Shown piece by piece: positions 30,323 through 50,647 of a DNA stretch of 57,672 nt; position 1 is the first letter of the stretch, and each line of letters opens with the position of its first letter. The position numbers were made by a program, and so were the translations under genes. Below the pieces are notes generated by a model. It had not been told where the DNA came from, did not search any database, and saw only the letters and a list, made by a program, of their open reading frames with translations. This DNA is from a virus. Lineage: Duplodnaviria; Caudoviricetes. The stretch lies in IMG/VR virus record IMGVR_UViG_3300044296_000098, positions 1-57,672 of that record, one strand, 5' to 3'.

Positions 30323-30390
30323 GCGGGCCAGAGTATGCAGTAACGGCGGGGTGAAACGCAAGGGGGTGGGTCTACGGTAAATAGCGGGAA

Positions 30391-30470
30391 ATTACGGGGA
30401 ATTACGGGGAATTACGGGGAATTACGGGGGATTATGGGGAATTACGGGGGGTTATGGGGGATATCGGGAG
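30391..30470. repeat. 10-bp tandem repeat (ATTACGGGGA), about 8 copies, degenerating rightwards
   Basis: Read directly from the sequence. Confidence 0.92.
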
Positions 30471-30597
30471 ACGGCAGGGCACCGCAAAAGGTTACCGGTC
30501 TTTTTGATTTTTGGGGGGCTACCCGGCGCCCCCGCCCCCCTTCGAGCTGGCCGAAGACCGGGGGGGGGGGCCTCCGCCACCGTAACGACCGCCCTGG

Positions 30598-30720
30598 TGC
30601 AACCCTAGGTAGGCGTAATGCAACCCTAGGTAGGCGTAGTGCAATCCTAGGTAGGCGTAATGCAACCCTAGGTAGGCGTAGTGCAATCCTAGGTAGGCGT
30701 AGTGCAACCCTAGGTAGGCG
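30598..30720. repeat. 21-bp tandem repeat TGCAAYCCTAGGTAGGCGTAR, about 6 copies
   Basis: Read directly; each unit contains the palindrome CCTAGG. Confidence 0.95.
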
Positions 30721-32035: not shown

Positions 32036-32099
32036 CGACCCTACCCACACCTGCCCTAACCCGCCTGATACCTAGCGTCGCACCCGGCTGGGAGCAAGC

Positions 32100-32300
<201 letters not shown>

Positions 32301-32305
32301 GGCCC

Positions 32306-32650
32306 AATACTCCTCACTTTTCCGGCCTCACTCCTGCCTTTTTTCGAAGTGAGGGATTTCGGGTGTGGAATGGAGGGTGTCAATTTCTTCAACAATTTCA
32401 ACGTTCTAGCTATCTTTATACTCCCTACTCCTCACTTTTTAAAGTCTTACACATGAGAGACCTATAATATATAATACATAATATATAATATATAATATAT
32501 AATATACAGATAGAAAAAATCTGGGGGGAATAGGAAAAAGTGAGGAGTATCCGTTTAAGACGCCTATCCGAAATGAAGAGTGTGAGTTATTTCAATACCT
32601 TGTGGCCGAAAACCTTTACCCCTGGACTACCCGAAAGTGAGGGGTAACTC
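32306..32650. other. Candidate replication origin: AT-rich core flanked by inverted AAAAGTGAGGAGTA boxes
   Basis: TACTCCTCACTTTT at 32308 and 32426, AAAAAGTGAGGAGTA at 32535, variant AAAGTGAGGGGTA at 32634; (TATAATA)n tract at about 32463-32506. Confidence 0.5.
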
Positions 32651-33553: not shown

Positions 33554-34099
33554 ATCACTGACGAGCAGTTTGCCGCGCACACGGCGTGGTTTCGCGGGGA
33601 GCCAGGAGGCGAGCGGTTGGTCCTGACCGGCGCCGACTTGACCGGCGCCGACTTGGCCCGCGCCGATCTGCGCCGCGCCGACCTGACCGGCGCCGACTTG
33701 GCCCGCGCCGACTTGACCTGCGCCGACTTGGCCCGCGCCGTGCTGGCCCGCGCCGCGTTGCGCTGCGCCGACTTGACTGGCGCCGACTTGACCGGCGCCG
33801 ACCTGCGTCACGCCGACCTGACCGGCGCCGTGCTGGATCGCGCCGACCTGCGTCACGCCGACCTGACCGGCGCCGTGCTGGATCGCGCCGACTTGACCTG
33901 CGCCAACTTGGCCGGCGCCGCCGGCATAGTCGATGCCGGGGCAGACTGGCGCGGGTATAGGTTCCTCGGCGTCCGTCACTCGGATGGCTGGCGTATAGCC
34001 GCCGGCTGCCGTTGGTTCACGCTGCCAGAGGCTCGTCAGCACTGGCAGGACAACCTGGCCGCCCTCGCCCGCCTCGGCGTGATCGAGGCGCGGTCATGA
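33551..34099 (+). CDS. Pentapeptide-repeat protein 1
   Basis: About 20 A(D/V)Lxx repeats; C-terminal D.RGYRFLG...IAAGCRWFT..EARQHW domain. Confidence 0.9.
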   Translation: MITDEQFAAHTAWFRGEPGGERLVLTGADLTGADLARADLRRADLTGADLARADLTCADLARAVLARAALRCADLTGADLTGADLRHADLTGAVLDRADLRHADLTGAVLDRADLTCANLAGAAGIVDAGADWRGYRFLGVRHSDGWRIAAGCRWFTLPEARQHWQDNLAALARLGVIEARS

Positions 34100-34136: not shown

Positions 34137-34700
34137 ATGATCACACAAGAGCAGCTCGCCGCGCATGCGGCGTGGTTTCGCGGGGAGCCAGGAGGCGTAC
34201 GGTTGGTCCTGACCGACGCCGACTTGACCGACGCCGACTTGACCGACGCCGACTTGACCGACGCCGACCTGCGCCGCGCCGACTTGGCCCGCGCCGACCT
34301 GCGCGGCGCCGGCCTGCGCCGCGCCGTGTTGCGCCACGCCGACTTGACCGACGCCGTGTTGCGCGGCGCCGACCTGCGCGGCGCCGTGTTGCGCCGCGCC
34401 GTGTTGCGCCGCGCCGTACTGCGCGGCGCCGACCTGCGCCACGCCGACTTGACCGACGCCGACTTGACCGACGCCGACCTGCGCTACGCCGACCTGCGCC
34501 GCGCCGACTTGACCGACGCCGTCGGCATGATCGATGCCGGGACGGATCCGCGCGGGTATAGGTTCCTCGGCATCCGCCACTCGGATGGCTGGCGTATAGC
34601 CGCCGGTTGCCGCTGGTTCACGGCAGCCGAGGCTCGTCAGCACTGGCAGGACAATCCGGACGCCCTCACCCGCGTAGGTGTGATCGAGGCGCAGCCATGA
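34137..34700 (+). CDS. Pentapeptide-repeat protein 2 (tandem paralogue)
   Basis: Same N- and C-terminal domains and same upstream cassette as 33551-34099. Confidence 0.9.
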   Translation: MITQEQLAAHAAWFRGEPGGVRLVLTDADLTDADLTDADLTDADLRRADLARADLRGAGLRRAVLRHADLTDAVLRGADLRGAVLRRAVLRRAVLRGADLRHADLTDADLTDADLRYADLRRADLTDAVGMIDAGTDPRGYRFLGIRHSDGWRIAAGCRWFTAAEARQHWQDNPDALTRVGVIEAQP

Positions 34701-42357: not shown

Positions 42358-43462
42358 AGCCGAGCACGCGGTACTGGCGCCATCCTCCGCTTACCAGTGG
42401 GTCAACTGCCCCGGCAGCGTGATGATGCAGCGTCAATACCCGGAGCCGGAAGGGGAGAACGAAGCGGCGGACGAAGGGTCCGCCGCCCACTTCCTGGCTT
42501 CCGAGTATCTCAAGACCGGCAAATGGAAGGAAGGAGGTTTCAACGGCGTCCCGTTCACCACGGAGATGCAGCAGCACGTAAAGCTGTTCACGGATCTTGC
42601 TGACGGCGCCCGTAGCTCCGGGGCCAACTGGTATGTCGAGGCTAAGGTCGACATTTCCTCGATCCATCAAGACTGCTGGGGGACGGCGGACTTCTTCACC
42701 ATCGACCTGGCGGCGAAAACGGTTTGCCTGCTCGACCTGAAGTATGGTTTCGGGATCGTGGAGGCTTTCGAGAACCCGCAGCTATTGGCCTACGCCAGCG
42801 GCATCTACGACCTGATCGGGTCGGACGCGATCGACTATACGTTCGAACTGGGCATCGTTCAGCCGCGGCCTTGGCATCGCGAGGGGCCGGTGCGGCGGTG
42901 GCGCATCGCCGGCGTGGAGGTATCCAATCGCGCCCGCCATACCCGGGCTGCTGCAGAAGAGGCTCTCGGCAACAACCCCCGGACGGTTCCGGGGCCTTGG
43001 TGCAAGCACTGCACCGCTCGGCATGCTTGCCCGGCGCTGCGGGCGACCACACTCGACACGGCGGACATGGTTCGGGAAGCTACGCCCGTCGAGTTGCCGC
43101 CCGAGGGGCTGGCCGTCGAGTTGGGTTTGCTGAAGCGAGCGCAGGCCCAGATCGAGATGCGGCTGGCCGGGCTGGAGGCTCAGGCGACGGCTTTGATCCA
43201 GGGCGGCAAGTCCGTGCCGGGGTGGGGCATCGACCACACCGTCGGCCGGGAAGAATGGGCCAAGCCGGTGAAGGAAGTCTTGGCGCTTGGCGACCTGTTC
43301 GGCGTGAACCTTGCCAAACCGGTTGAGCCGATCACGCCTGCACAGGCTCGTAAGGCGGGCGTCGAACCGACCGTCATTGCGGCCTATGCCAAGCGTAAGG
43401 CTGGGACCGCAAAGCTCGTGAAGATTGACACTGCCGCCGCTCGCAAAGCGTTCGGCGGCTAA
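42350..43462 (+). CDS. Cas4-like PD-(D/E)xK exonuclease (DUF2800 type)
   Basis: HAVLAPSS...CPGS, EGSAAH, WGTADF, LDLKYG, NPQLLAYA, PGPWCKHC...CP. Confidence 0.85.
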   Translation: MAEAEHAVLAPSSAYQWVNCPGSVMMQRQYPEPEGENEAADEGSAAHFLASEYLKTGKWKEGGFNGVPFTTEMQQHVKLFTDLADGARSSGANWYVEAKVDISSIHQDCWGTADFFTIDLAAKTVCLLDLKYGFGIVEAFENPQLLAYASGIYDLIGSDAIDYTFELGIVQPRPWHREGPVRRWRIAGVEVSNRARHTRAAAEEALGNNPRTVPGPWCKHCTARHACPALRATTLDTADMVREATPVELPPEGLAVELGLLKRAQAQIEMRLAGLEAQATALIQGGKSVPGWGIDHTVGREEWAKPVKEVLALGDLFGVNLAKPVEPITPAQARKAGVEPTVIAAYAKRKAGTAKLVKIDTAAARKAFGG

Positions 43463-43475
43463 CAGGAGAAGAACC

Positions 43476-44348
43476 ATGGCAGACGCAGTACCATTCACGA
43501 CGCCGGTTGGCCGGCTCGTTCAGGGGTCCCTTTACAAGGGCTCGACCACGGATGCGGAGGGCAATCCCCTCGTCATCAAGAGCGGCCCGAATGCCGGCCA
43601 GCCGCGGACGGATTACTTCTTTGCCTTGGCCATCCCCAAGGGCAGCGAGCAGTCCTGGGCGCAAACCGAATGGGGCAAGCTGATCTACGACGTTGGGGTC
43701 AAGGGCTTTCCGAATGGACAGTACAACGCCCCGACCTTCGCCTGGAAGGTCATCGACGGCGACAGCACGGTGCCGAACCGCCGGGGCCGGAAGCCTTGTG
43801 ATCGCGAGGGGTTCAAGGGCCACTGGGTGCTTAACTTCAGCAGCGGCTACGCCCCGCGCATCTTCAACTCGAACGGTTCGCAGGCGCTGACTGACCCCGA
43901 CCACGTCAAGCTCGGCTATTACGTCCAGGTCGCCGGCACCGTGTCCGGCAACGGCAGCACTCAGCAGCCGGGCGTCTATCTTAACCACGGCATGGTCGCC
44001 CTCGCCGGCTTCGGCCCGGAGATTGTGGTCGGCCCGGATCCAACCGCCGTTGGCTTTGGCAACGCCGCTCTGCCGGCGGGCGCCAGTGCCACCCCGCTCG
44101 GGGGTCTGCCGGGCGCGGCGTCTGCGCTGCCGGGTATGCCCGCGGCTGCTCCGGCCGCCCCGGCCGCCCCCTCCGCTCCGGCTGCTCCGGCCGTTCAGCC
44201 TCATCCGGCGTTCCTCAACCCCTCGGCTCCTCCGCCTCCTGCGGCTCGCCAGATGACGGCGAAGGCGCAAGGCATGACCTACGAGCAGATGGTCGCCGCG
44301 GGATGGAACGACGCGCTGCTGGTGCAGCACGGGTACATGGCGGCGTGA
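43476..44348 (+). CDS. Single-stranded DNA-binding protein
   Basis: TPVGRLVQGS, WKVIDGDS, GHWVL, GYYVQV, PGVYLN; located after the exonuclease; AGGAG RBS. Confidence 0.7.
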   Translation: MADAVPFTTPVGRLVQGSLYKGSTTDAEGNPLVIKSGPNAGQPRTDYFFALAIPKGSEQSWAQTEWGKLIYDVGVKGFPNGQYNAPTFAWKVIDGDSTVPNRRGRKPCDREGFKGHWVLNFSSGYAPRIFNSNGSQALTDPDHVKLGYYVQVAGTVSGNGSTQQPGVYLNHGMVALAGFGPEIVVGPDPTAVGFGNAALPAGASATPLGGLPGAASALPGMPAAAPAAPAAPSAPAAPAVQPHPAFLNPSAPPPPAARQMTAKAQGMTYEQMVAAGWNDALLVQHGYMAA

Positions 44349-44645: not shown

Positions 44646-44933
44646 ATGACCGTCAACTTCAAGGAACTGGTCGAAGAGGCCATGCAAGAGCGGTACGACC
44701 CGCGCGGACGGCGGTGCTGGCCGTGGTCCCATGAGTGGTCTATGTGGGGCTTGGACGTTAGCGCCCGGAGGCAATCACGGCGATGCGTCGGTTGCGGCAA
44801 ACTCCAAGTTAAAACGCTCTCTTCGGTTTGCGCGCACTCGTGGCAGGTGTTTGAACAGCCTAGTCCGGTCGGGGTTGTGAGTATTATCCAACACTGCCCG
44901 TGGTGCGGGGACTTAAGGCGCCGGAGCGTATGA
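44646..44933 (+). CDS. Cys-rich hypothetical protein
   Basis: H.W...CVGCG and CAHSW...CPWCG; ATGA overlap with the methyltransferase. Confidence 0.6.
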   Translation: MTVNFKELVEEAMQERYDPRGRRCWPWSHEWSMWGLDVSARRQSRRCVGCGKLQVKTLSSVCAHSWQVFEQPSPVGVVSIIQHCPWCGDLRRRSV

Positions 44934-45931
44934 CCCGAGCCTATTACAATGAGGTAGATCCGTTTGCTGCTCAATGGTTACGAAACCTCATTGTATGCGG
45001 CTACATCGCGCCCGGAGACGTAGACGAAAGAGATATTCGGGACGTCTATCCCAGCGACCTTAAAGGATACGTTCAATGCCATTTTTTCGCAGGCATAGGG
45101 ATTTGGTCTCGGGCGTTTCGTTCCGCAGGATGGGCGGATGAACGACCTGTCTGGAGCGGTTCGTGCCCTTGCCAGCCTTTCAGCGCGGCAGGCCGCAGAG
45201 AAGGGATTGCTGATGAGCGGCACTTATGGCCGCACTTCCACCACCTCATCCGAGAGTGCAAACCTGGGGTCGTTTTTGGCGAACAGGTTGCGAGCAAGGA
45301 CGGCCTCGCTTGGCTCGACCTTGTACAATCTGACTTGGAAGGAGAGGGTTACGCCGTCGGGGCGCTTGATCTTTGCGCTGCGGGCGTCGGCGCCCCGCAC
45401 ATCCGCCAGCGATTGTATTGGGCGGCCGACGCCTACAACCCGCGACCACAAGGACGGGGCGTCGGAGGGGACGGTTCCGACGAATGGGTTACTCGGGCGC
45501 CAAGCGTGGTTGGCGGGGTGGCCGACGCCTACGGGCAAGGAGACAGCGGGGGGAGAATACAAAGACCCGGAGAAAGCGATGCTTCGGGCGCTTGGGCCGC
45601 ATGCGAACGATCTGCGGGATTTCGTGCAACTGGCCGGGTGGTGCTCGCCGATGGCCGAGGACGGCAGGAGGGGCGGACTGCCGGCGCGCCCACAGGACAC
45701 GGGCGTGCCGCTGTCGCAGCAGGTGGCGTTGATCGGCCCGGCCCGACGAACGGCGGATGGGCGGATGCTGACTGGCTCTTCTGCCGGGACAACAAATGGC
45801 GGCCAGTTAAATCCGGAACATTCCCGTTGGTTGATGGGTATCCCTCAAGAGTGGGCGCTTTGCGCGCCTATGGGAATGCGGTCGTCGCGCCGCTCGCCGA
45901 AGAGTTCATCCGCGCTTACCTCGGGACCTAA
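44930..45931 (+). CDS. C5-cytosine DNA methyltransferase, alpha-type chain
   Basis: FFAGIG (motif I), GSCPCQPFS (IV), GEQV (VI), PHIRQRLY (VIII), YGNAVV (X). Confidence 0.9.
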   Translation: MTRAYYNEVDPFAAQWLRNLIVCGYIAPGDVDERDIRDVYPSDLKGYVQCHFFAGIGIWSRAFRSAGWADERPVWSGSCPCQPFSAAGRREGIADERHLWPHFHHLIRECKPGVVFGEQVASKDGLAWLDLVQSDLEGEGYAVGALDLCAAGVGAPHIRQRLYWAADAYNPRPQGRGVGGDGSDEWVTRAPSVVGGVADAYGQGDSGGRIQRPGESDASGAWAACERSAGFRATGRVVLADGRGRQEGRTAGAPTGHGRAAVAAGGVDRPGPTNGGWADADWLFCRDNKWRPVKSGTFPLVDGYPSRVGALRAYGNAVVAPLAEEFIRAYLGT

Positions 45932-45935
45932 ATGA
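45138..45935 (+). CDS. Overprinted alternate-frame ORF, putative methyltransferase beta chain carrying motif IX
   Basis: Repeated (W/R)PTPT..D.K units and C-terminal GQLNPEHSRWLMGIPQEW; its stop overlaps the polymerase ATG (ATGA). Confidence 0.7.
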   Translation: MNDLSGAVRALASLSARQAAEKGLLMSGTYGRTSTTSSESANLGSFLANRLRARTASLGSTLYNLTWKERVTPSGRLIFALRASAPRTSASDCIGRPTPTTRDHKDGASEGTVPTNGLLGRQAWLAGWPTPTGKETAGGEYKDPEKAMLRALGPHANDLRDFVQLAGWCSPMAEDGRRGGLPARPQDTGVPLSQQVALIGPARRTADGRMLTGSSAGTTNGGQLNPEHSRWLMGIPQEWALCAPMGMRSSRRSPKSSSALTSGPK

Positions 45936-48217
45936 CCCCGCCCCCTCCGCCTGCGCTCTCCGACCTCCCTGCGGGATACCAGCTTCGTGCCGGCCGGGGC
46001 TTCAGCACTATCCTCCCGGACATGGACTTCGAGACCTATAGCGAGGCGGGCCTCGTGTGGGACGAAGGCAGGCAGAGGTGGCGGGCGCCCGACCGCGCTC
46101 CCAGCACGAAGCGCAGCATCAGCCTAGTGGGCGCGGCGCGGTATGCGGAGCACCCGTCCACTCAAGTGCTATGCCTAGCTTATGATCTCAAGGACGGCCG
46201 GGGCCGCCGGCAATGGGTTCCAGGCATGGAGCCGCCCGTCGACCTGTTCGCCTACCTTGCCACAGGAGGCCCGATCGAGGCTTGGAACGTCAGCTTTGAG
46301 CGGCACATCTGGGAGAAAGTCTGTGTTCCGCGCATGGGGTGGCCCCAGATCCACCGGAGCCAATGGCGGTGCGCCATGGCCAAAGCTCGGGCCTTCGCGT
46401 TGCCCGGCGCCCTGGCTAACGCAGCCTCCGTGGTCCATGCATCGGCGCAGAAAGACCCCGCCGGCACTCGGCTGCTGAACAAGTTTAGCGTGCCGCGGAA
46501 CCCGACCCTCAAGGACAAACGACTGCGGCTGGATCCGGCCACGGATCCGGAAGGGCCGGCGCTGTATGCCTACAACGTCCAAGACATCGTGGCCGAGGCG
46601 GAGGTGTCCTCGCTCGTCCCTGACTTGCAGCCGGACGAGCAGGAATGGTGGTTCGTCGACCAGGAGATTAACGCCCGCGGCGTCCAGATCGATATGGAGA
46701 GCGTGAACGCCGCGATCTCCATCGTGGAAGAGACGCTCAAGCGGTATAACGGGGAGCTGGCAGTGTTGACCAATGGGGCGGTTTCTTCAGCCAGCGAAGT
46801 GCAGAAACTTACCGGTTGGCTCGGCGCGTATGGCCTGCATCTGTCCTCCCTCGACGAAGAGGCGGTAGGCGCGGCTCTAGCGCGTAAGGACTTGCACCCC
46901 ACAGTGCGGCGGGCACTAGAGATACGGGCCCTCGTGGGAAGCGCCAGCGTCAAGAAGCTGTTCGCTATGGAGCATATGGTCTGCCGCGACGGTCGCCTGC
47001 GTGACCTATACGTCTACCACGGGGCTAGAACCGGCCGGGCGACAGGCGGTTCCGTGCAGCCTACCAACCTTCCTAACCACGGCCCGGCAGTGCGGAAGTG
47101 CGTGTCCTGCGGCAAGCACTTCGGGGAGGCCGCAGGACGGTGCCCGTGGTGCGCGGCAGCGCCGACACCTGCCACACAAGAGTGGTCCGCATCTGCGATG
47201 GAAGACGCCATAGCGGTCCTCCGGAGCGGGTCGCTCGATCTGACCGAGATGGCCTTCGGCCCCGCCTTACCGGCTATCAGCGGGTGCCTCCGAGGCATGT
47301 TCGTGGCCGCACCCGGCCACGACCTCATAGCGTCGGACTACAGCGCGATCGAGGCCGTGGTGCTGGCGGAACTGGCGGGCGAGAAGTGGCGTCAAGAGGT
47401 GTTCCGGACGCACGGTAAGATATACGAGATGAGCGCCAGCAAGATCAGCGGCGTTCCGTTCGAGGAAATGATGGAGCACCGTAAACGCACGGGGCAGCAT
47501 CATCCCCTCCGGAAAACGATCGGTAAAGTAGCGGAACTGGCCAGCGGGTACCAGGGCTGGATAGGCGCGTGGAAAGCATTTGGCGCCGACGAGTTCATGT
47601 CCGAAGAGGAGATGAAGACCTCCATTCTCAAATGGCGGGCGGAGTCTCCAGCGATCGTAGAGTTCTGGGGCGGTCAAACCCGGCGCGTGGCGTTCGGCGG
47701 CGTCGTTCGGGAATACTACGGGGTCGAAGGCGCAGCCGTCATGGCGGTGCTGTCGCCGGGTAAAGAGTTCTCGTTTCGTGGCGTAACTTACGTTTGCCAG
47801 GGAGACATTCTCTACTGCCGGTTGTTGTCGGGCCGGTATTTGACCTACCACAGCCCTCGGCTGGAGCCGAGCCAAAAGAGGGTTGGAGAATGGTCGCTGA
47901 GCTACGCCGGGTGGAATACGAACCCGAAGAACGGCCCGATTGGTTGGATACGTATGCAAACGTGGGGAGGCCGTTTAGTCGAAAATATTATTCAGGCGAC
48001 CGCGCGAGATATTCAACGAGAGGCGCTTGTCAAACAGGAACGGGCCGGTTATAAGATCGTCCTACACGTTTACGACGAGAACGTAGCCGAAGTTCCTGAT
48101 GGCTGGGGTTCCGTCGAAGAGTTTGAAAAGATCATGTCTACTATGCCCGCATGGGCGGCCGATTGGCCTGTTCGTGCGGCGGGTGGATGGCGCGGTAAAC
48201 GCTATCGAAAGGACTAA
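45932..48217 (+). CDS. DNA polymerase family A with 3'-5' exonuclease
   Basis: DFETYS, AWNVSFER, YNVQDI, GARTGR, ASDYSAIE (motif A), GKVAELASGYQG (B), ENIIQATARD, HVYDE (C). Confidence 0.93.
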   Translation: MTPPPPPALSDLPAGYQLRAGRGFSTILPDMDFETYSEAGLVWDEGRQRWRAPDRAPSTKRSISLVGAARYAEHPSTQVLCLAYDLKDGRGRRQWVPGMEPPVDLFAYLATGGPIEAWNVSFERHIWEKVCVPRMGWPQIHRSQWRCAMAKARAFALPGALANAASVVHASAQKDPAGTRLLNKFSVPRNPTLKDKRLRLDPATDPEGPALYAYNVQDIVAEAEVSSLVPDLQPDEQEWWFVDQEINARGVQIDMESVNAAISIVEETLKRYNGELAVLTNGAVSSASEVQKLTGWLGAYGLHLSSLDEEAVGAALARKDLHPTVRRALEIRALVGSASVKKLFAMEHMVCRDGRLRDLYVYHGARTGRATGGSVQPTNLPNHGPAVRKCVSCGKHFGEAAGRCPWCAAAPTPATQEWSASAMEDAIAVLRSGSLDLTEMAFGPALPAISGCLRGMFVAAPGHDLIASDYSAIEAVVLAELAGEKWRQEVFRTHGKIYEMSASKISGVPFEEMMEHRKRTGQHHPLRKTIGKVAELASGYQGWIGAWKAFGADEFMSEEEMKTSILKWRAESPAIVEFWGGQTRRVAFGGVVREYYGVEGAAVMAVLSPGKEFSFRGVTYVCQGDILYCRLLSGRYLTYHSPRLEPSQKRVGEWSLSYAGWNTNPKNGPIGWIRMQTWGGRLVENIIQATARDIQREALVKQERAGYKIVLHVYDENVAEVPDGWGSVEEFEKIMSTMPAWAADWPVRAAGGWRGKRYRKD

Positions 48218-48221
48218 CGCA

Positions 48222-48806
48222 ATGCAAACGTCCGTTGCTACCGTTACGATCAGAGGGATCACTTCGCTTTCGCAGTCGCGGAGGCATGCGGACCCGAGGA
48301 AGGAAGGTGAGAACCCGGAGGATTACGACAACCGAACTTGGCGTTCCAAACTGAGCGTCGAGAACGGTTCGGTCGTGTTGCCCGCGCATGGGGTTCACCA
48401 GGCGATTGCCGCCGCGGCAAAGTATTCTAAGCGGCAGATCCCCGGCCAAGGGAAGTCCACTTGGACCGCCAAGTTCATGGCCGGTATCGCCATCCTGGAG
48501 GATCCTCGCCTCAACATTGACCCGGAGACCGTTTCCAGCGTCGTCATCAGCGCGAATTCGGACGGCGTGCGTGGGTCCGGCCGGCGTGTCCCTCGCCGCT
48601 ACCCGATGATCCCGGAGTGGCAAACCACGTTCGAGGTTTATATTCTCGACCCCATCATCACGGAGAGCGTGTTCACCGAGATGCTGACCATTTCCGGCAT
48701 GTTCATCGGCCTTGGTCGGTTCCGGCCGGAAAAGGGCGGCACCAACGGCCGGTTCCAGCTCGTGGAACTCCAGTGGCAAGATAACCGTCAGCTTCTAGCT
48801 GCATAG
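48222..48806 (+). CDS. Solitary Cas7/RAMP-like protein (194 aa), putative RNA-binding effector of the adjacent array
   Basis: N-terminal strand VTIRGITSL; VLPAHGVHQAI resembles RAMP IPGSSLKGAL; basic hairpin VRGSGRRVPRRYP; C-terminal Gly-rich loop IGLGRFRPEKGGTNGRF. Confidence 0.65.
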   Translation: MQTSVATVTIRGITSLSQSRRHADPRKEGENPEDYDNRTWRSKLSVENGSVVLPAHGVHQAIAAAAKYSKRQIPGQGKSTWTAKFMAGIAILEDPRLNIDPETVSSVVISANSDGVRGSGRRVPRRYPMIPEWQTTFEVYILDPIITESVFTEMLTISGMFIGLGRFRPEKGGTNGRFQLVELQWQDNRQLLAA

Positions 48807-48812
48807 AGGCTT

Positions 48813-48849
48813 GAGGTGCCTGTTCCTTCCCCCGTGGTATGGGCACCTC
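48813..48849 (+). other. Leader hairpin between the RAMP-like gene and the array
   Basis: GAGGTGCC...GGCACCTC inverted repeat. Confidence 0.6.
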
Positions 48850-48851
48850 GC

Positions 48852-49418
48852 CCTTCCCATGCCGTCAGCCTCAGTGGCTGGCGGGATGCGAAGGCATCCA
48901 TCTCCGCCCCGCTGCGCTCCGCAACGCTGCGCCTCGCCTCGCAACGCAACGCAACGGCCTTCCCATGCCGTCAGCCTCAGCGGCTGGCGGGATGCGAAGG
49001 CATCCATCTCCGCGCCGCCTCGCGCCGCCTCGCTACGCTGCGCTCCGCAACGCAACGCAACGCAACGCAACGGCCTTCCCATGCCGTCAGCCTCAGCGGC
49101 TGGCGGGATGCGAAGGCATCCATCGCCGCCACGCCTCGCATCGCACCGCATCGCACCGCAACGCACCGCAACGCAACGCAACGGCCTTCCCATGCCGTCA
49201 GCCTCAGTGGCTGGCGGGATGCGAAGGCATCCATCGACGCTTCGCCTCGCCGCGCTCCGCAACGCAACGCAACGACCTTCCCATGCCGTCAGCCTACGCG
49301 GCTGGCGGGATGCGAAGGCATCTATCGCCGCTCCGCTTCGCAACGCAGCGCTCCGCGCCGCGACGCCACGCAGCGCAACGCCTCGCCACGCCGCGCCCCG
49401 CAACGCCCCGTAACGTAA
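48852..49418 (+). repeat. Array of five 51-nt hairpin repeats, each followed by a tract of CGC-NN pentamers (putative guide-RNA array)
   Basis: Repeat CCTTCCCATGCCGTCAGCC-TCAGY-GGCTGGCGGGATGCGAAGGCATCCATC at 48852, 48958, 49074, 49185 and 49276; tracts of 10, 12, 11, 7 and 16 CGCNN units. Confidence 0.95.
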
Positions 49419-49430
49419 AGGAACCTAACC

Positions 49431-49913
49431 GTGGCTCTGACGTCTGCTGATATCCGTGTGCTTACCGATGCCATGCTCAGCACTCCGGTCGGGGAAGTAA
49501 TCACCTTCTTCGAGCTGTCGAAGGCTCTTGGGGCTAACGTCAAAGCCCGGCAGTACCTTATCCACGGCGCGATTAAGCTCGCCAGTAAGGAAGCCGGCGC
49601 GATCTTCACCAGCGTCCGTTCGGTCGGCTACAAGCGGCTCCCCGCCGAAGCCGCAGCGGCTGTGGGGTCGCACGCTCGAAACCGCGTCCGGTCGACCGCA
49701 AGGAAAGCCTCAGGCATCATCACACGGGCCGTCGAACGCGCTAACGACATGTCTGATGAAGCTCGACGCAAAGCCATGACTGAGGTCTCCGCCCTCCAGC
49801 TGCTGAACACTCTTGCCGCTGATAGGACGGTTAAGGCCGTTCAACCGACCGATAAGCCGCAACCGGTAGCCATGACCCTGCGGTCAATGGCGGCGTCATT
49901 GGGGATTACGTGA
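49431..49913 (+). CDS. Putative winged-helix DNA-binding protein, candidate accessory of the RAMP/array locus
   Basis: GTG start with AAGGA RBS right after the array; ITFFELSKALG and FTSVRSVGYKRL wing-like motif. Confidence 0.7.
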   Translation: MALTSADIRVLTDAMLSTPVGEVITFFELSKALGANVKARQYLIHGAIKLASKEAGAIFTSVRSVGYKRLPAEAAAAVGSHARNRVRSTARKASGIITRAVERANDMSDEARRKAMTEVSALQLLNTLAADRTVKAVQPTDKPQPVAMTLRSMAASLGIT

Positions 49914-50167: not shown

Positions 50168-50333
50168 ATGTGAGACCTGTAGGCATTGGAGCCCTTCCAA
50201 TAATCCCGGTATTGGCTATTGCGATTGGACCGTCGAAGCAGACGTACCGGAATGGCTAGTAACTTCTTCGGCTTCTATGCGGGGGTTCGAGGGGTCTACT
50301 TGCCGGGTTTGGTCTCCTGGAAACGACCGCTAA
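50154..50333 (+). CDS. Small Cys-rich hypothetical protein
   Basis: GGAG RBS; CETCRHW...GYC...CRVW. Confidence 0.6.
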   Translation: MSARKCETCRHWSPSNNPGIGYCDWTVEADVPEWLVTSSASMRGFEGSTCRVWSPGNDR

Positions 50334-50419
50334 TTCCCTTTCGCTTTGGGGGTGGCCGCGGTTTGCGGGGCAGCAGGCATCGACTGCATCCTCCCCCAAT
50401 TCCTGACAGGAGAAACACG

Positions 50420-50647
50420 ATGGCTCACGTTGACAGCGCCTCCGACGATCGCACTGCGAACAACGCCGTGCGGCACCAATACCGCGTCCTATCCGATGCG
50501 GAGAAGCAGCAGATGGTTGACTTGAAAGACCTTGGCGCGGCGTTCATCCAGAAGTGCAAGGACATCGGCGGCAGTCGGGAATTGTCGATCGCCATCACCA
50601 AGGCCGAGGAAGCCGTGATGTGGGCCGTCAAGCATGTGACAGCCTAG
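50420..50647 (+). CDS. Acb2/Tad1-like helical hairpin protein (putative immune-signal sponge)
   Basis: QYRVLSDAEKQQMVDLK...SRELSIAITKAEEAVMWAVKHVT; AGGAG RBS. Confidence 0.7.
   Translation: MAHVDSASDDRTANNAVRHQYRVLSDAEKQQMVDLKDLGAAFIQKCKDIGGSRELSIAITKAEEAVMWAVKHVTA

What the first reader, a model, noticed from the sequence alone, without database searches (positions are those of the whole stretch)
48903..49418. Spacers are a dinucleotide code on an invariant CGC scaffold
All 56 pentamers I counted start with CGC (plus two terminal CGTAA), while positions 4-5 vary freely. Spacers 1-4 are 55, 65, 60 and 40 nt, all multiples of 5. Including the leading dinucleotide, the NN strings are S1 TC-CC-TG-TC-AA-TG-CT-CT-AA-AA-AA; S2 TC-GC-CT-GC-CT-TA-TG-TC-AA-AA-AA-AA-AA; S3 GC-CA-CT-AT-AC-AT-AC-AA-AC-AA-AA-AA; S4 GA-TT-CT-CG-TC-AA-AA-AA; S5 GC-TC-TT-AA-AG-TC-GC-GA-CA-AG-AA-CT-CA-CG-CC-AA-CC-AA-AA. 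A decaying microsatellite would mutate all five positions, so variation confined to two suggests selection. Every tract ends in AA units, which look like non-informative filler or the template from which new units arise. Inference: CGC is bound by protein and NN pairs non-contiguously with a target.
Basis: partly seen in the sequence, partly recalled or inferred. Interest (0 to 1): 0.92.

Follow-up and report, generated by a model that had tools for sequence, protein, structure and literature searches.

The report
Phage VIPR guide array, CGC scaffold
The five-letter repeats are guide RNA genes of a phage VIPR system, a CRISPR-like gene silencer first described in 2026, here built on a fixed CGC instead of the published GGY.

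Summary
Of 63 phased five-base units, 56 read NN-CGC, and 71 of 79 departures from AACGC fall in the two NN positions.

The gene just upstream (48222-48806) is a Vipr protein. Its family profile hits the solved SUSP1 Vipr at E 7e-8. Its model has a Cas7 fold. Published VIPR systems use pentamer repeats in which Vipr holds a fixed triplet. The NN pairs read DNA with one base skipped (bioRxiv 10.64898/2026.04.26.720920).

What differs here:
- The fixed triplet is CGC, not GGY.
- Hairpins separate the guides.
- Each guide ends in unmatched AA units.

Relatives of this Vipr clade use CGC, CTC, CAC, GAC or GGC.

Two guide-to-target matches at a one-base skip fit the rule:
- The first 11 units of tract S5 spell the DUF3175 core motif exactly in two metagenome contigs. 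This is suggestive, not proven.
- A relative's guide hits a serine-recombinase active-site motif in 5 of 121 genomes. Controls gave 0.

No target was found for S1-S4. The scan has found VIPR systems before on other DNA.

The parts
48222..48806 (+). vipr gene: a 194-aa minimal Cas7-like RAMP protein with the G-rich loop GLGRFRPEKGGTNGRF
   Evidence: A profile of 26 family members hits PDB 36pp_D 'SUSP1 Vipr protein' at E 7.3e-8. The AF2 model has pLDDT 91.7. Foldseek top hits are type VII Cas7, Cmr4 and Csm3, E 1e-7 to 1e-5. It matches PHROG 4652, function unknown. There are 954 unnamed homologs.
48808..48852 (+). Hairpin directly after the vipr stop codon, not followed by a T run
   Evidence: Folds at -24.7 kcal/mol, z -4.03. 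No terminator-like site was called on this strand.
48852..48902 (+). Hairpin unit 1 (47 nt plus CATC)
   Evidence: The stem contains a U-G pair, which only forms on the + strand.
48903..48957 (+). Guide tract S1: 11 units, NN = TC CC TG TC AA TG CT CT AA AA AA
   Evidence: No convincing target: 12 exact hits in viral contigs, at chance level.
48958..49008 (+). Hairpin unit 2
49009..49073 (+). Guide tract S2: 13 units, 8 informative plus 5 AA
   Evidence: 9 exact hits in viral contigs lie in unrelated genes, at chance level.
49074..49124 (+). Hairpin unit 3
49125..49184 (+). Guide tract S3: 12 units, 9 informative plus 3 AA
   Evidence: One exact viral hit, off the wobble frame, at chance level.
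49185..49235 (+). Hairpin unit 4
   Evidence: A contig from another sample carries this hairpin followed by a different tract (run X3, record 19).
49236..49275 (+). Guide tract S4: 8 units, 5 informative plus 3 AA
   Evidence: Too short for a collection scan.
49276..49326 (+). Hairpin unit 5 (variant loop and flank)
49327..49421 (+). Guide tract S5: 19 units, running into the ribosome-binding site of the next gene. Units 1-11 spell codon positions 1-2 of the DUF3175 core motif.
49431..49913 (+). vap-like accessory gene: 160 aa, an N-terminal winged-helix-like domain plus long helices
   Evidence: No Pfam or PHROG family. tblastn gave 23 matches to it among the fetched loci; 18 distinct full-length ORFs were extracted and aligned. 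AF2 pLDDT 88. Only weak Foldseek hits to winged-helix DNA-binding domains, E 0.1 or worse.

Best explanation
This is a phage-encoded VIPR system (Viral Interference Programmable Repeat).

Inferred mechanism, by homology:
- The array is transcribed on the + strand, probably together with vipr, and cut at or near the hairpins into guide RNAs.
- Vipr protomers polymerise along each tract, one per pentamer, and sequester the fixed CGC.
- The exposed NN dinucleotides pair with double-stranded DNA in which every third base is skipped. A guide therefore reads codon positions 1-2 and ignores the wobble base.
- Binding silences transcription of the target. The published targets are rival mobile elements.

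Features particular to this locus and its clade:
- The scaffold is CGC rather than GGY.
- A stable hairpin separates the guides.
- The informative units sit next to the upstream hairpin.
- Each guide ends in 2-5 AA units that do not match targets.

Shown here: the periodic anatomy, the Vipr homology and fold, the conserved gene-array association, fast NN turnover, and two one-base-skip matches in wobble phase. Inferred here: transcription, processing, binding and silencing.
For: (1) Protein. The family profile A1 hits only one solved protein with significance, SUSP1 Vipr (E 7.3e-8), aligned through the thumb and G-loop. A high-confidence model (pLDDT 91.7) matches Cas7-type RAMPs.

(2) Association. 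A scan for the DNA pattern alone returned 35 viral loci, and 23 encode a Vipr homolog in the stretch held. All 56 loci found through the protein were checked, and about 48 carry phased pentamer tracts beside the gene, by my reading.

(3) Strand. Tracts lie on the vipr coding strand in all loci. GGC-type relatives read GGY only on that strand.

(4) Conservation pattern. Relatives at 68-81% Vipr identity keep NN-CGC tracts in the same slot, but with different NN strings and different intervening units. L001 has a polymerase 95% identical yet unrelated guides. Another sample shows hairpin 4 followed by a different tract.

(5) Code. S5 units 1-11 match exactly at a one-base skip in two contigs of 42% and 64% GC. 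Both matches are in frame with the skip on wobble, in DUF3175 genes at the family's conserved motif. A 12-unit guide of relative L049 matches a serine-recombinase catalytic motif at 21-22 of 24 positions, in wobble phase. It does so in 5 of 121 genomes, against 0 for the backwards control and 0 of 121 at a two-base skip.

(6) The published mechanism was read.
Against: - No RNA data exist for this phage. No RNA run was listed, so transcription, processing and Vipr binding are untested.
- Four of the five window guides have no identified target.
- In a 0.65-Mb local set, 175 guides showed no enrichment at any skip over shuffled guides.
- The S5-DUF3175 match covers only 11 of 17 units (27 of 34 NN overall, just under the published 80% cut).
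- No match within 3 mismatches was found in 401, 151 and 101 genomes of Alphaproteobacteria and of the order of G531.
- None of 193 other guides hits DUF3175.
- My rough estimate of a chance in-frame hit is about 0.004-0.02 per scan, and I ran six such scans.
- The residues that read G1 and G2 in SUSP1 are not conserved here. The G-loop GxGRFRP is the same in CGC, CTC, CAC and GGC loci, so I cannot say how the triplet is recognised.
- In SUSP1 the structured element is a 3' pseudoknot and engagement runs 3' to 5'. Here the 3' units are unmatched AA, so polarity may differ.
Confidence: 0.85

Rival explanations
1. The tracts are a periodic binding array for an oligomeric RNA-binding regulator, following the logic of TRAP on GAG-NN repeats. 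The tracts would sit in 5' leaders and control translation of the downstream genes. CGC is the contact and NN is a free spacer that carries no information.
For: Tracts end a few bases before ribosome-binding sites in the window and in relatives. NN variation alone is what a free spacer would show. Four of five guides have no target.
Against: The adjacent protein is a Vipr homolog, and in that family NN is shown to specify DNA targets. Two guides match conserved coding motifs in wobble phase. Guides S1-S4 lie between hairpins, not before genes.
Confidence: 0.06
2. The array is a CRISPR-like array in the usual sense. The 51-nt hairpins would be the repeats, and the pentamer tracts would be spacers captured from invaders and read contiguously.
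For: The layout alternates repeats and spacers next to a Cas7-like gene.
Against: In relatives the conserved element is the pentamer tract, not the hairpin. A tract with CGC at every fifth base cannot be a copied protospacer. Contiguous reading (skip 0) gave no excess over shuffles. Rfam gave no CRISPR repeat match. No cas1 or other cas gene was seen among the neighbours scanned.
Confidence: 0.02
3. The array is a DNA-level element: iterons of a replication origin or a coating site for a DNA-binding protein, placed in the replication module.
For: It lies beside the SSB, methylase and polymerase genes.
Against: The tracts are strictly strand-specific and co-oriented with genes in all loci. A U-G pair in the hairpin forms only on the + strand. 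In genomes the tracts travel with vipr rather than with replication genes.
Confidence: 0.03
4. The pattern is a mutational artefact. Either it is a CGCAA microsatellite decaying neutrally, or adenines are mutated by a diversity-generating retroelement.
For: Variation sits where the consensus has A. AA units cluster at the 3' ends, as polar slippage would give.
Against: 71 of 79 changes fall in two of five positions (P 2.6e-20). The 99%-complete phage has no reverse transcriptase. Relatives use other triplets and show the same NN freedom. A true pure (CGCAA)n microsatellite (L033) looks quite different.
Confidence: 0.02

Closest known systems
Type II VIPR of Escherichia phage SUSP1 and the Pseudomonas fulva prophage (bioRxiv 10.64898/2026.04.26.720920 and .720927; PDB 36pp)
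   Same: Both have a lone ~20-kDa Cas7-like Vipr, a small accessory gene, and guide RNA genes made of 5-nt units with a fixed triplet and free NN. Both are phage-borne. The one-base skip falls on the wobble position in the two matches found here.
   Different: The scaffold is CGC, not GGY. Simple hairpins lie between guides instead of a 3' pseudoknot tail. A run of unmatched AA units ends each guide. The array sits between vipr and the accessory gene. Only the C-terminal half aligns by sequence (profile positions 98-183).
Non-canonical VIPR repeats: NNNGG, YNNNG, NNNNG (first VIPR preprint, Methods); GAC/NN, CAC/NN, WGT/NN, TGH/NN (bioRxiv 10.64898/2026.10.21.760802, passages)
   Same: Both have a fixed triplet other than GGY next to a Vipr-like fold. 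C-NN-C-G fits the pattern written YNNNG.
   Different: CGC and CTC are not named in the main text of any of the four preprints; 'cgc' has 0 occurrences in each.
Cas7 backbone of Class 1 CRISPR effectors (Csm3, Cmr4, type VII Cas7)
   Same: They share the fold. In both, one protomer binds per RNA repeat unit and bases are flipped out periodically.
   Different: The period is 5 nt with 3 bases hidden, not 6 with 1. There is no cas1/cas2 and no spacer uptake. The guide is non-contiguous.
TRAP binding sites (GAG/UAG triplets with 2-3 nt spacers); recalled, not from a call
   Same: Both have a triplet plus a two-base spacer periodicity bound by a protein oligomer.
   Different: There the spacer carries no information and the protein is unrelated.

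Membership tests
VIPR system | Vipr protein: a small stand-alone RAMP with an RRM core, G-rich loop and thumb | tested here: met
   Profile hit to SUSP1 Vipr at E 7.3e-8. AF2 pLDDT 91.7. Cas7-type top hits.
VIPR system | Tandem 5-nt units with a fixed triplet and hypervariable NN, about 9-16 units per guide | tested here: met
   56 of 63 units are NN-CGC, with 8-19 units per tract. The triplet is CGC rather than the canonical GGY.
VIPR system | Canonical GGY scaffold | tested here: not met
   The scaffold is CGC throughout. The papers allow 'a related consensus'.
VIPR system | Guides flank the vipr gene on its strand, with no CRISPR array or other cas genes | tested here: met
   Only the neighbours were scanned for cas genes, not all window genes.
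VIPR system | Accessory vap gene with a predicted DNA-binding or nuclease fold | tested here: inconclusive
   The 160-aa gene has homologs in 18 of the fetched loci, and where I compared positions it lies beside vipr. The winged-helix resemblance rests only on weak Foldseek hits.
VIPR system | Structured constant element attached to each tract (3' tail in SUSP1) | tested here: inconclusive
   Stable hairpins lie between tracts. Whether they end up 5' or 3' of the mature guide is unknown.
VIPR system | NN read against DNA with a one-base skip | tested here: inconclusive
   S5 units 1-11 match exactly in two DUF3175 genes, in wobble phase. A relative's guide scores 5 of 121 genomes against 0 of 121 at skip 2 and 0 backwards. 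No target was found for S1-S4, and the local set showed no enrichment.
VIPR system | vrRNAs expressed and co-purifying with Vipr; transcriptional silencing | not testable with these tools
   No RNA run was listed.
CRISPR-Cas | Spacers that are contiguous copies of foreign DNA; adaptation genes | tested here: not met
   The tracts are periodic scaffolds. No cas1 or cas2 was seen among the neighbours.
Diversity-generating retroelement | Reverse transcriptase plus template and variable repeat pair | tested here: not met
   PF00078 is absent from the 99%-complete genome. The control rang in 3 of 14 genomes.

The most novel reading that the evidence does not exclude
A CGC-scaffold VIPR clade works with reversed polarity. 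The structured hairpin and a seed-like block of informative units sit at the 5' end, and expendable AA units sit at the 3' end. In this phage one guide (S5) is aimed not at a rival mobile element but at a conserved chromosomal host gene of unknown function (DUF3175). VIPR would then serve host takeover as well as inter-virus conflict.

Within one Vipr clade the scaffold triplet has switched repeatedly (CGC, CTC, CAC, GAC, GGC) without change in the G-loop motif. This implies an unrecognised determinant of triplet choice.
Probability: 0.25. Interest if true: 0.65.

Novelty: new variant of a known kind. Interest (0 to 1): 0.42.

Why it matters
It adds a well-resolved, non-canonical member to a very young class of RNA-guided systems.
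- The CGC scaffold, and the CTC, CAC, GAC and GGC scaffolds in close relatives, show that the 'fixed' triplet is itself evolvable. That matters for engineering orthogonal VIPR tools and for detectors that look only for GGY.
- The unmatched AA tail and the hairpin-proximal block of matches hint at a different assembly polarity.
- If the DUF3175 match is real, it would be a case of a phage guide aimed at a host chromosomal gene. It would also give that uncharacterised family a first functional lead.

The basic finding, that NN is a gapped code on a protein-held scaffold, is already published.

Tried and rejected
- Similarity to known phages: blastn in distant mode found nothing.
- Rfam: nothing but a sub-threshold miRNA hit, so the hairpins are not known ribozymes.
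- PADLOC: no hits for six neighbouring proteins.
- DGR idea: dropped, because there is no reverse transcriptase.
- TRAP-like idea: held until, then demoted.
- Idea that the swap of SUSP1 D177 for Arg in the G-loop explains C in place of G1: rejected. GxGRFRP is the same in CGC, CTC, CAC and GGC loci.
- Local target searches: 103 guides against 38 loci and 175 guides against 0.65 Mb, skips 0-3 against shuffled unit order. No enrichment at any skip. The one strong hit (L033) was a low-complexity artefact, (CGCAA)n against (AAG)n.
- Exact one-base-skip scans of viral contigs:
  - S5 units 1-10: 0 hits.
  - S5 units 8-17: 0 hits.
  - S3 units 1-9: 1 hit, in an AT-rich tail-fibre-like gene with the skip on codon position 1.
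  - S2 core: 9 hits in unrelated genes.
  - S1 core: 12 hits at about 5 distinct sites, one of them in frame.
  - All are at the level expected by chance for 16-18 fixed bases.
- S5 in genomes: 0 of 5, 0 of 401 with all 17 units, 0 of 151 with 14 units, 0 of 5 and 0 of 101 with 11 units.
- S1-S4 against the two DUF3175 contigs: nothing above shuffles. 193 other guides against DUF3175: nothing.
- No DUF3175 in the phage itself, but that family search rang in none of the control genomes either.
- No paper mentions DUF3175 in the library.
- No RNA holder was listed among sequencing runs. Laid contigs break at the array.
- Promoter and terminator scan: nothing convincing inside the array.
They may already show a CGC logo.
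- Skips 0 and 3 were not run genome-wide for the L049 guide.

Full report
What is there. The window is a whole phage record of 57672 bases, 99% complete. Between 48852 and 49421 lie five copies of a 47-nt hairpin, each followed by CATC or TATC (starts 48852, 48958, 49074, 49185, 49276). They alternate with five tracts of 55, 65, 60, 40 and 95 nt. In the frame NN-CGC the tracts hold 63 units, and 56 carry CGC. All 7 exceptions are the last one to three units of a tract. Entropy is 1.83 bits at each NN position and 0.12, 0 and 0.66 bits at C, G, C. Of 79 departures from AACGC, 71 are in NN (P 2.6e-20). Ten thousand shuffles never gave more than 13 phased CGC.

Surroundings. The array sits in a + strand run of genes:
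- a Gp2.5-like SSB (43425-44348),
- a C5 methylase (44900-45931),
- a family A polymerase (45932-48217),
- a 194-aa protein of PHROG 4652, function unknown (48222-48806),
- the array,
- a 160-aa protein of no family (49431-49913),
- further on, an Acb2/Tad1 hairpin-domain protein.

The hairpins fold strongly (-33.9 kcal/mol, z -4.65). They contain a U-G pair that forms only on the + strand. No promoter or terminator was called inside the array on that strand.

Relatives shift the emphasis. Three viral contigs encoding the 194-aa protein at 68-81% identity carry NN-CGC tracts in the same slot. Their NN strings differ, and so do the sequences between tracts. Two also have tracts upstream of the gene. 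The conserved element is therefore the pentamer tract, not the hairpin. A scan of viral contigs for the bare DNA pattern returned 35 loci, and 23 encode a homolog of the 194-aa protein in the stretch held. Of the other 12, one is a plain (CGCAA)n microsatellite. Several are cut by contig ends, and some may be solo guides. Within each locus all tracts share one strand.

Identification. A profile of 26 family members hits one solved protein with significance: chain 36pp_D, 'SUSP1 Vipr protein', E 7.3e-8. The alignment runs through the thumb and the G-rich loop. The AF2 model (pLDDT 91.7) matches type VII Cas7, Cmr4 and Csm3. A literature search then found the VIPR preprints.

- First preprint. 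I read the Results, Discussion and four Methods sections.
- Structure paper. I read the first part of the Results and some passages.
- Competition paper. I read the outline, two sections and some passages.
- A language-model preprint. I read passages only.

They report the following. Vipr is a minimal RAMP encoded mostly by phages. vrRNAs are 9-16 YNNGG units with a 3' tail. Vipr protomers hide GGY and present NN. NN pairs with double-stranded DNA with one base skipped, usually the wobble base. The outcome is transcriptional silencing of rival phages and satellites. Seven types exist, with 'a related consensus' in some (NNNGG, YNNNG, NNNNG). The fourth preprint adds GAC/NN, CAC/NN, WGT/NN and TGH/NN. 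'CGC' does not occur in the main text of any of the four.

This locus is a member with a different scaffold.

Scaffold diversity. Fifty-six genome loci found through the protein are mostly MAG contigs and prophages of Alphaproteobacteria. By my reading, with examples read, their tracts on the vipr strand use:
- CGC in about 25 loci,
- CTC in 7,
- GGC in 6,
- GAC in 6,
- CAC in 2,
- GTC in 1,
- CGA in 1,
- no tract detected in 8.

The third base is C in all but the CGA locus. The G-loop GxGRFRP is the same in CGC, CTC, CAC and GGC loci. My first idea, that Arg in place of SUSP1 D177 explains C in place of G1, therefore fails.

AA units. In 135 tracts of the window and the first 38 loci, the last three units are AA in 73, 70 and 57% of cases. 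This set is biased by the search pattern. In 37 tracts from 13 loci that were found through the protein, 25 carry a run of two or more AA at or next to the 3' end, by my count. GGC-type relatives end in GA runs instead. On the targets of the L049 guide the four AA units match 1-2 of 8 positions, which is chance level. They behave as filler. Whether they are raw material for new units was not tested.

Testing the code.

Local searches of up to 175 guides against 0.65 Mb of related loci showed no excess over shuffled guides at skips 0-3. That database is small and unlikely to hold targets.

Exact one-base-skip scans of viral contigs for S5 (two halves), S3, S2 and S1 gave 0, 0, 1, 9 and 12 hits. 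This is what chance predicts, and the hits do not cluster in one gene family.

The single metagenome scan, with S5 units 1-11, gave two exact hits. One contig has 42% GC and the other 64%. In both the NN fall on codon positions 1-2 of a DUF3175 gene (Pfam E 6e-43 and 5e-22) at the motif AASLKRSAEHSK. The wobble bases differ at 9 of 11 codons between the two, by my count of the two target lines. That motif is present in 115 of 120 family members inspected. The remaining six units match only 5 of 12, giving 27 of 34 overall.

Against this reading, no match within 3 mismatches turned up in 401, 151 and 101 genomes. None of 193 other guides hits DUF3175. My rough estimate of a chance in-frame hit is 0.004-0.02 per scan, over six scans. 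An earlier finding of this scan records that a similar claim about conserved motifs partly fell on later checking. I put the DUF3175 reading at about 55%.

Independent support for the rule in this clade comes from relative L049, a Paracoccus prophage with Vipr 47% identical. One 12-unit guide matches the catalytic motif IY(V/T)RKSSEEGL of large serine recombinases at 21-22 of 24 positions, with the skip on wobble. It does so in its own genome on another contig, in a Beijerinckiaceae MAG, and in 5 of 121 genomes of its family. The backwards control gave 0, and a two-base skip gave 0 of 121. A recombinase active site is also the target shown experimentally in the competition preprint (abstract).

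In both matches the perfectly matched block lies next to the upstream end of the tract. That is units 1-11 of S5 and units 1-8 of the L049 guide in its own genome.

Polarity. SUSP1 guides carry a 3' pseudoknot, and engagement proceeds 3' to 5' from it. Here five hairpins precede five tracts, the informative units adjoin the upstream hairpin, and the 3' units are unmatched AA. This suggests, but does not show, a 5' handle and 5'-proximal recognition. Other relatives have hairpins only between tracts, so the hairpins may simply be processing sites. S5 is atypical: it is the longest tract, it has AA units inside that do match Lys codons, and it runs into the ribosome-binding site of the next gene.

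The accessory gene. The 160-aa protein has homologs in 18 of the fetched loci, and where I compared positions it lies beside vipr. Its model (pLDDT 88) has an N-terminal winged-helix-like domain. Foldseek gives only weak hits to winged-helix DNA binders. This fits the published 'vap' genes but is not proven.

Verdict. What is new at the level of detail is the CGC scaffold, scaffold switching within one clade, hairpin-separated guides with AA tails, and a possible host-gene target.

Noticed in passing
window 50420-50647 (ORF 50219-50647): A small protein with an Acb2/Tad1 hairpin domain (Pfam PF24729, E 4.9e-17). This is a known kind of anti-CBASS / anti-Thoeris sponge, lying 500 bases downstream of the VIPR locus.
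   Followed up: partly
L049 3566-3642, with targets L096-L101: A CGC-type guide of a Paracoccus prophage spells the catalytic-serine motif of large serine recombinases with the skip on wobble. One hit is on another contig of its own host genome.
   Followed up: yes
L044, L057, L063 (CTC); L071, L062 (CAC); L072, L090 (GAC); L058, L078 (GGC); L079 (CGA): Close Vipr relatives use different fixed triplets while keeping the same G-loop motif. The third base is C in all but L079 (CGA).
   Followed up: partly
L004, L010, L015, L018, L026, L032, L035, L036: Single NN-CGC tracts in viral contigs with no Vipr homolog in the stretch held. They may be solo guides of the kind reported for SUSP1-like phages and satellites. 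L035 lies on the same contig as the Vipr locus L017.
   Followed up: no
L072 2600-2960 and L058 1420-1850: In GAC- and GGC-type arrays each tract is followed by a short T-rich stretch rather than a hairpin. GGC-type tracts end in GA units where CGC-type tracts end in AA.
   Followed up: no
window 33624-33920 and 34210-34521: 15-nt periodic coding repeats of the pentapeptide-repeat type. They produced partial false positives in my CGC phase scan.
   Followed up: no
window 30385-30720, 32099-32290, 32463-32506: Other tandem repeats: a 10-nt CGGGGAATTA array, a 21-nt repeat in 5.9 copies, a GCCA-rich array and TATAATA in 6 copies. They are unrelated to the VIPR array.
   Followed up: no
L033 2628-2694: A pure (CGCAA)n microsatellite in a giant-virus MAG contig, picked up by the pattern scan. 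It shows what an unselected CGCAA repeat looks like.
   Followed up: partly
L112 795-1130: The DUF3175 gene in this contig loses family similarity after residue 63, which may be a frameshift. Its neighbours are an MgtC-like membrane protein and a quinone oxidoreductase, so the setting is chromosomal.
   Followed up: no
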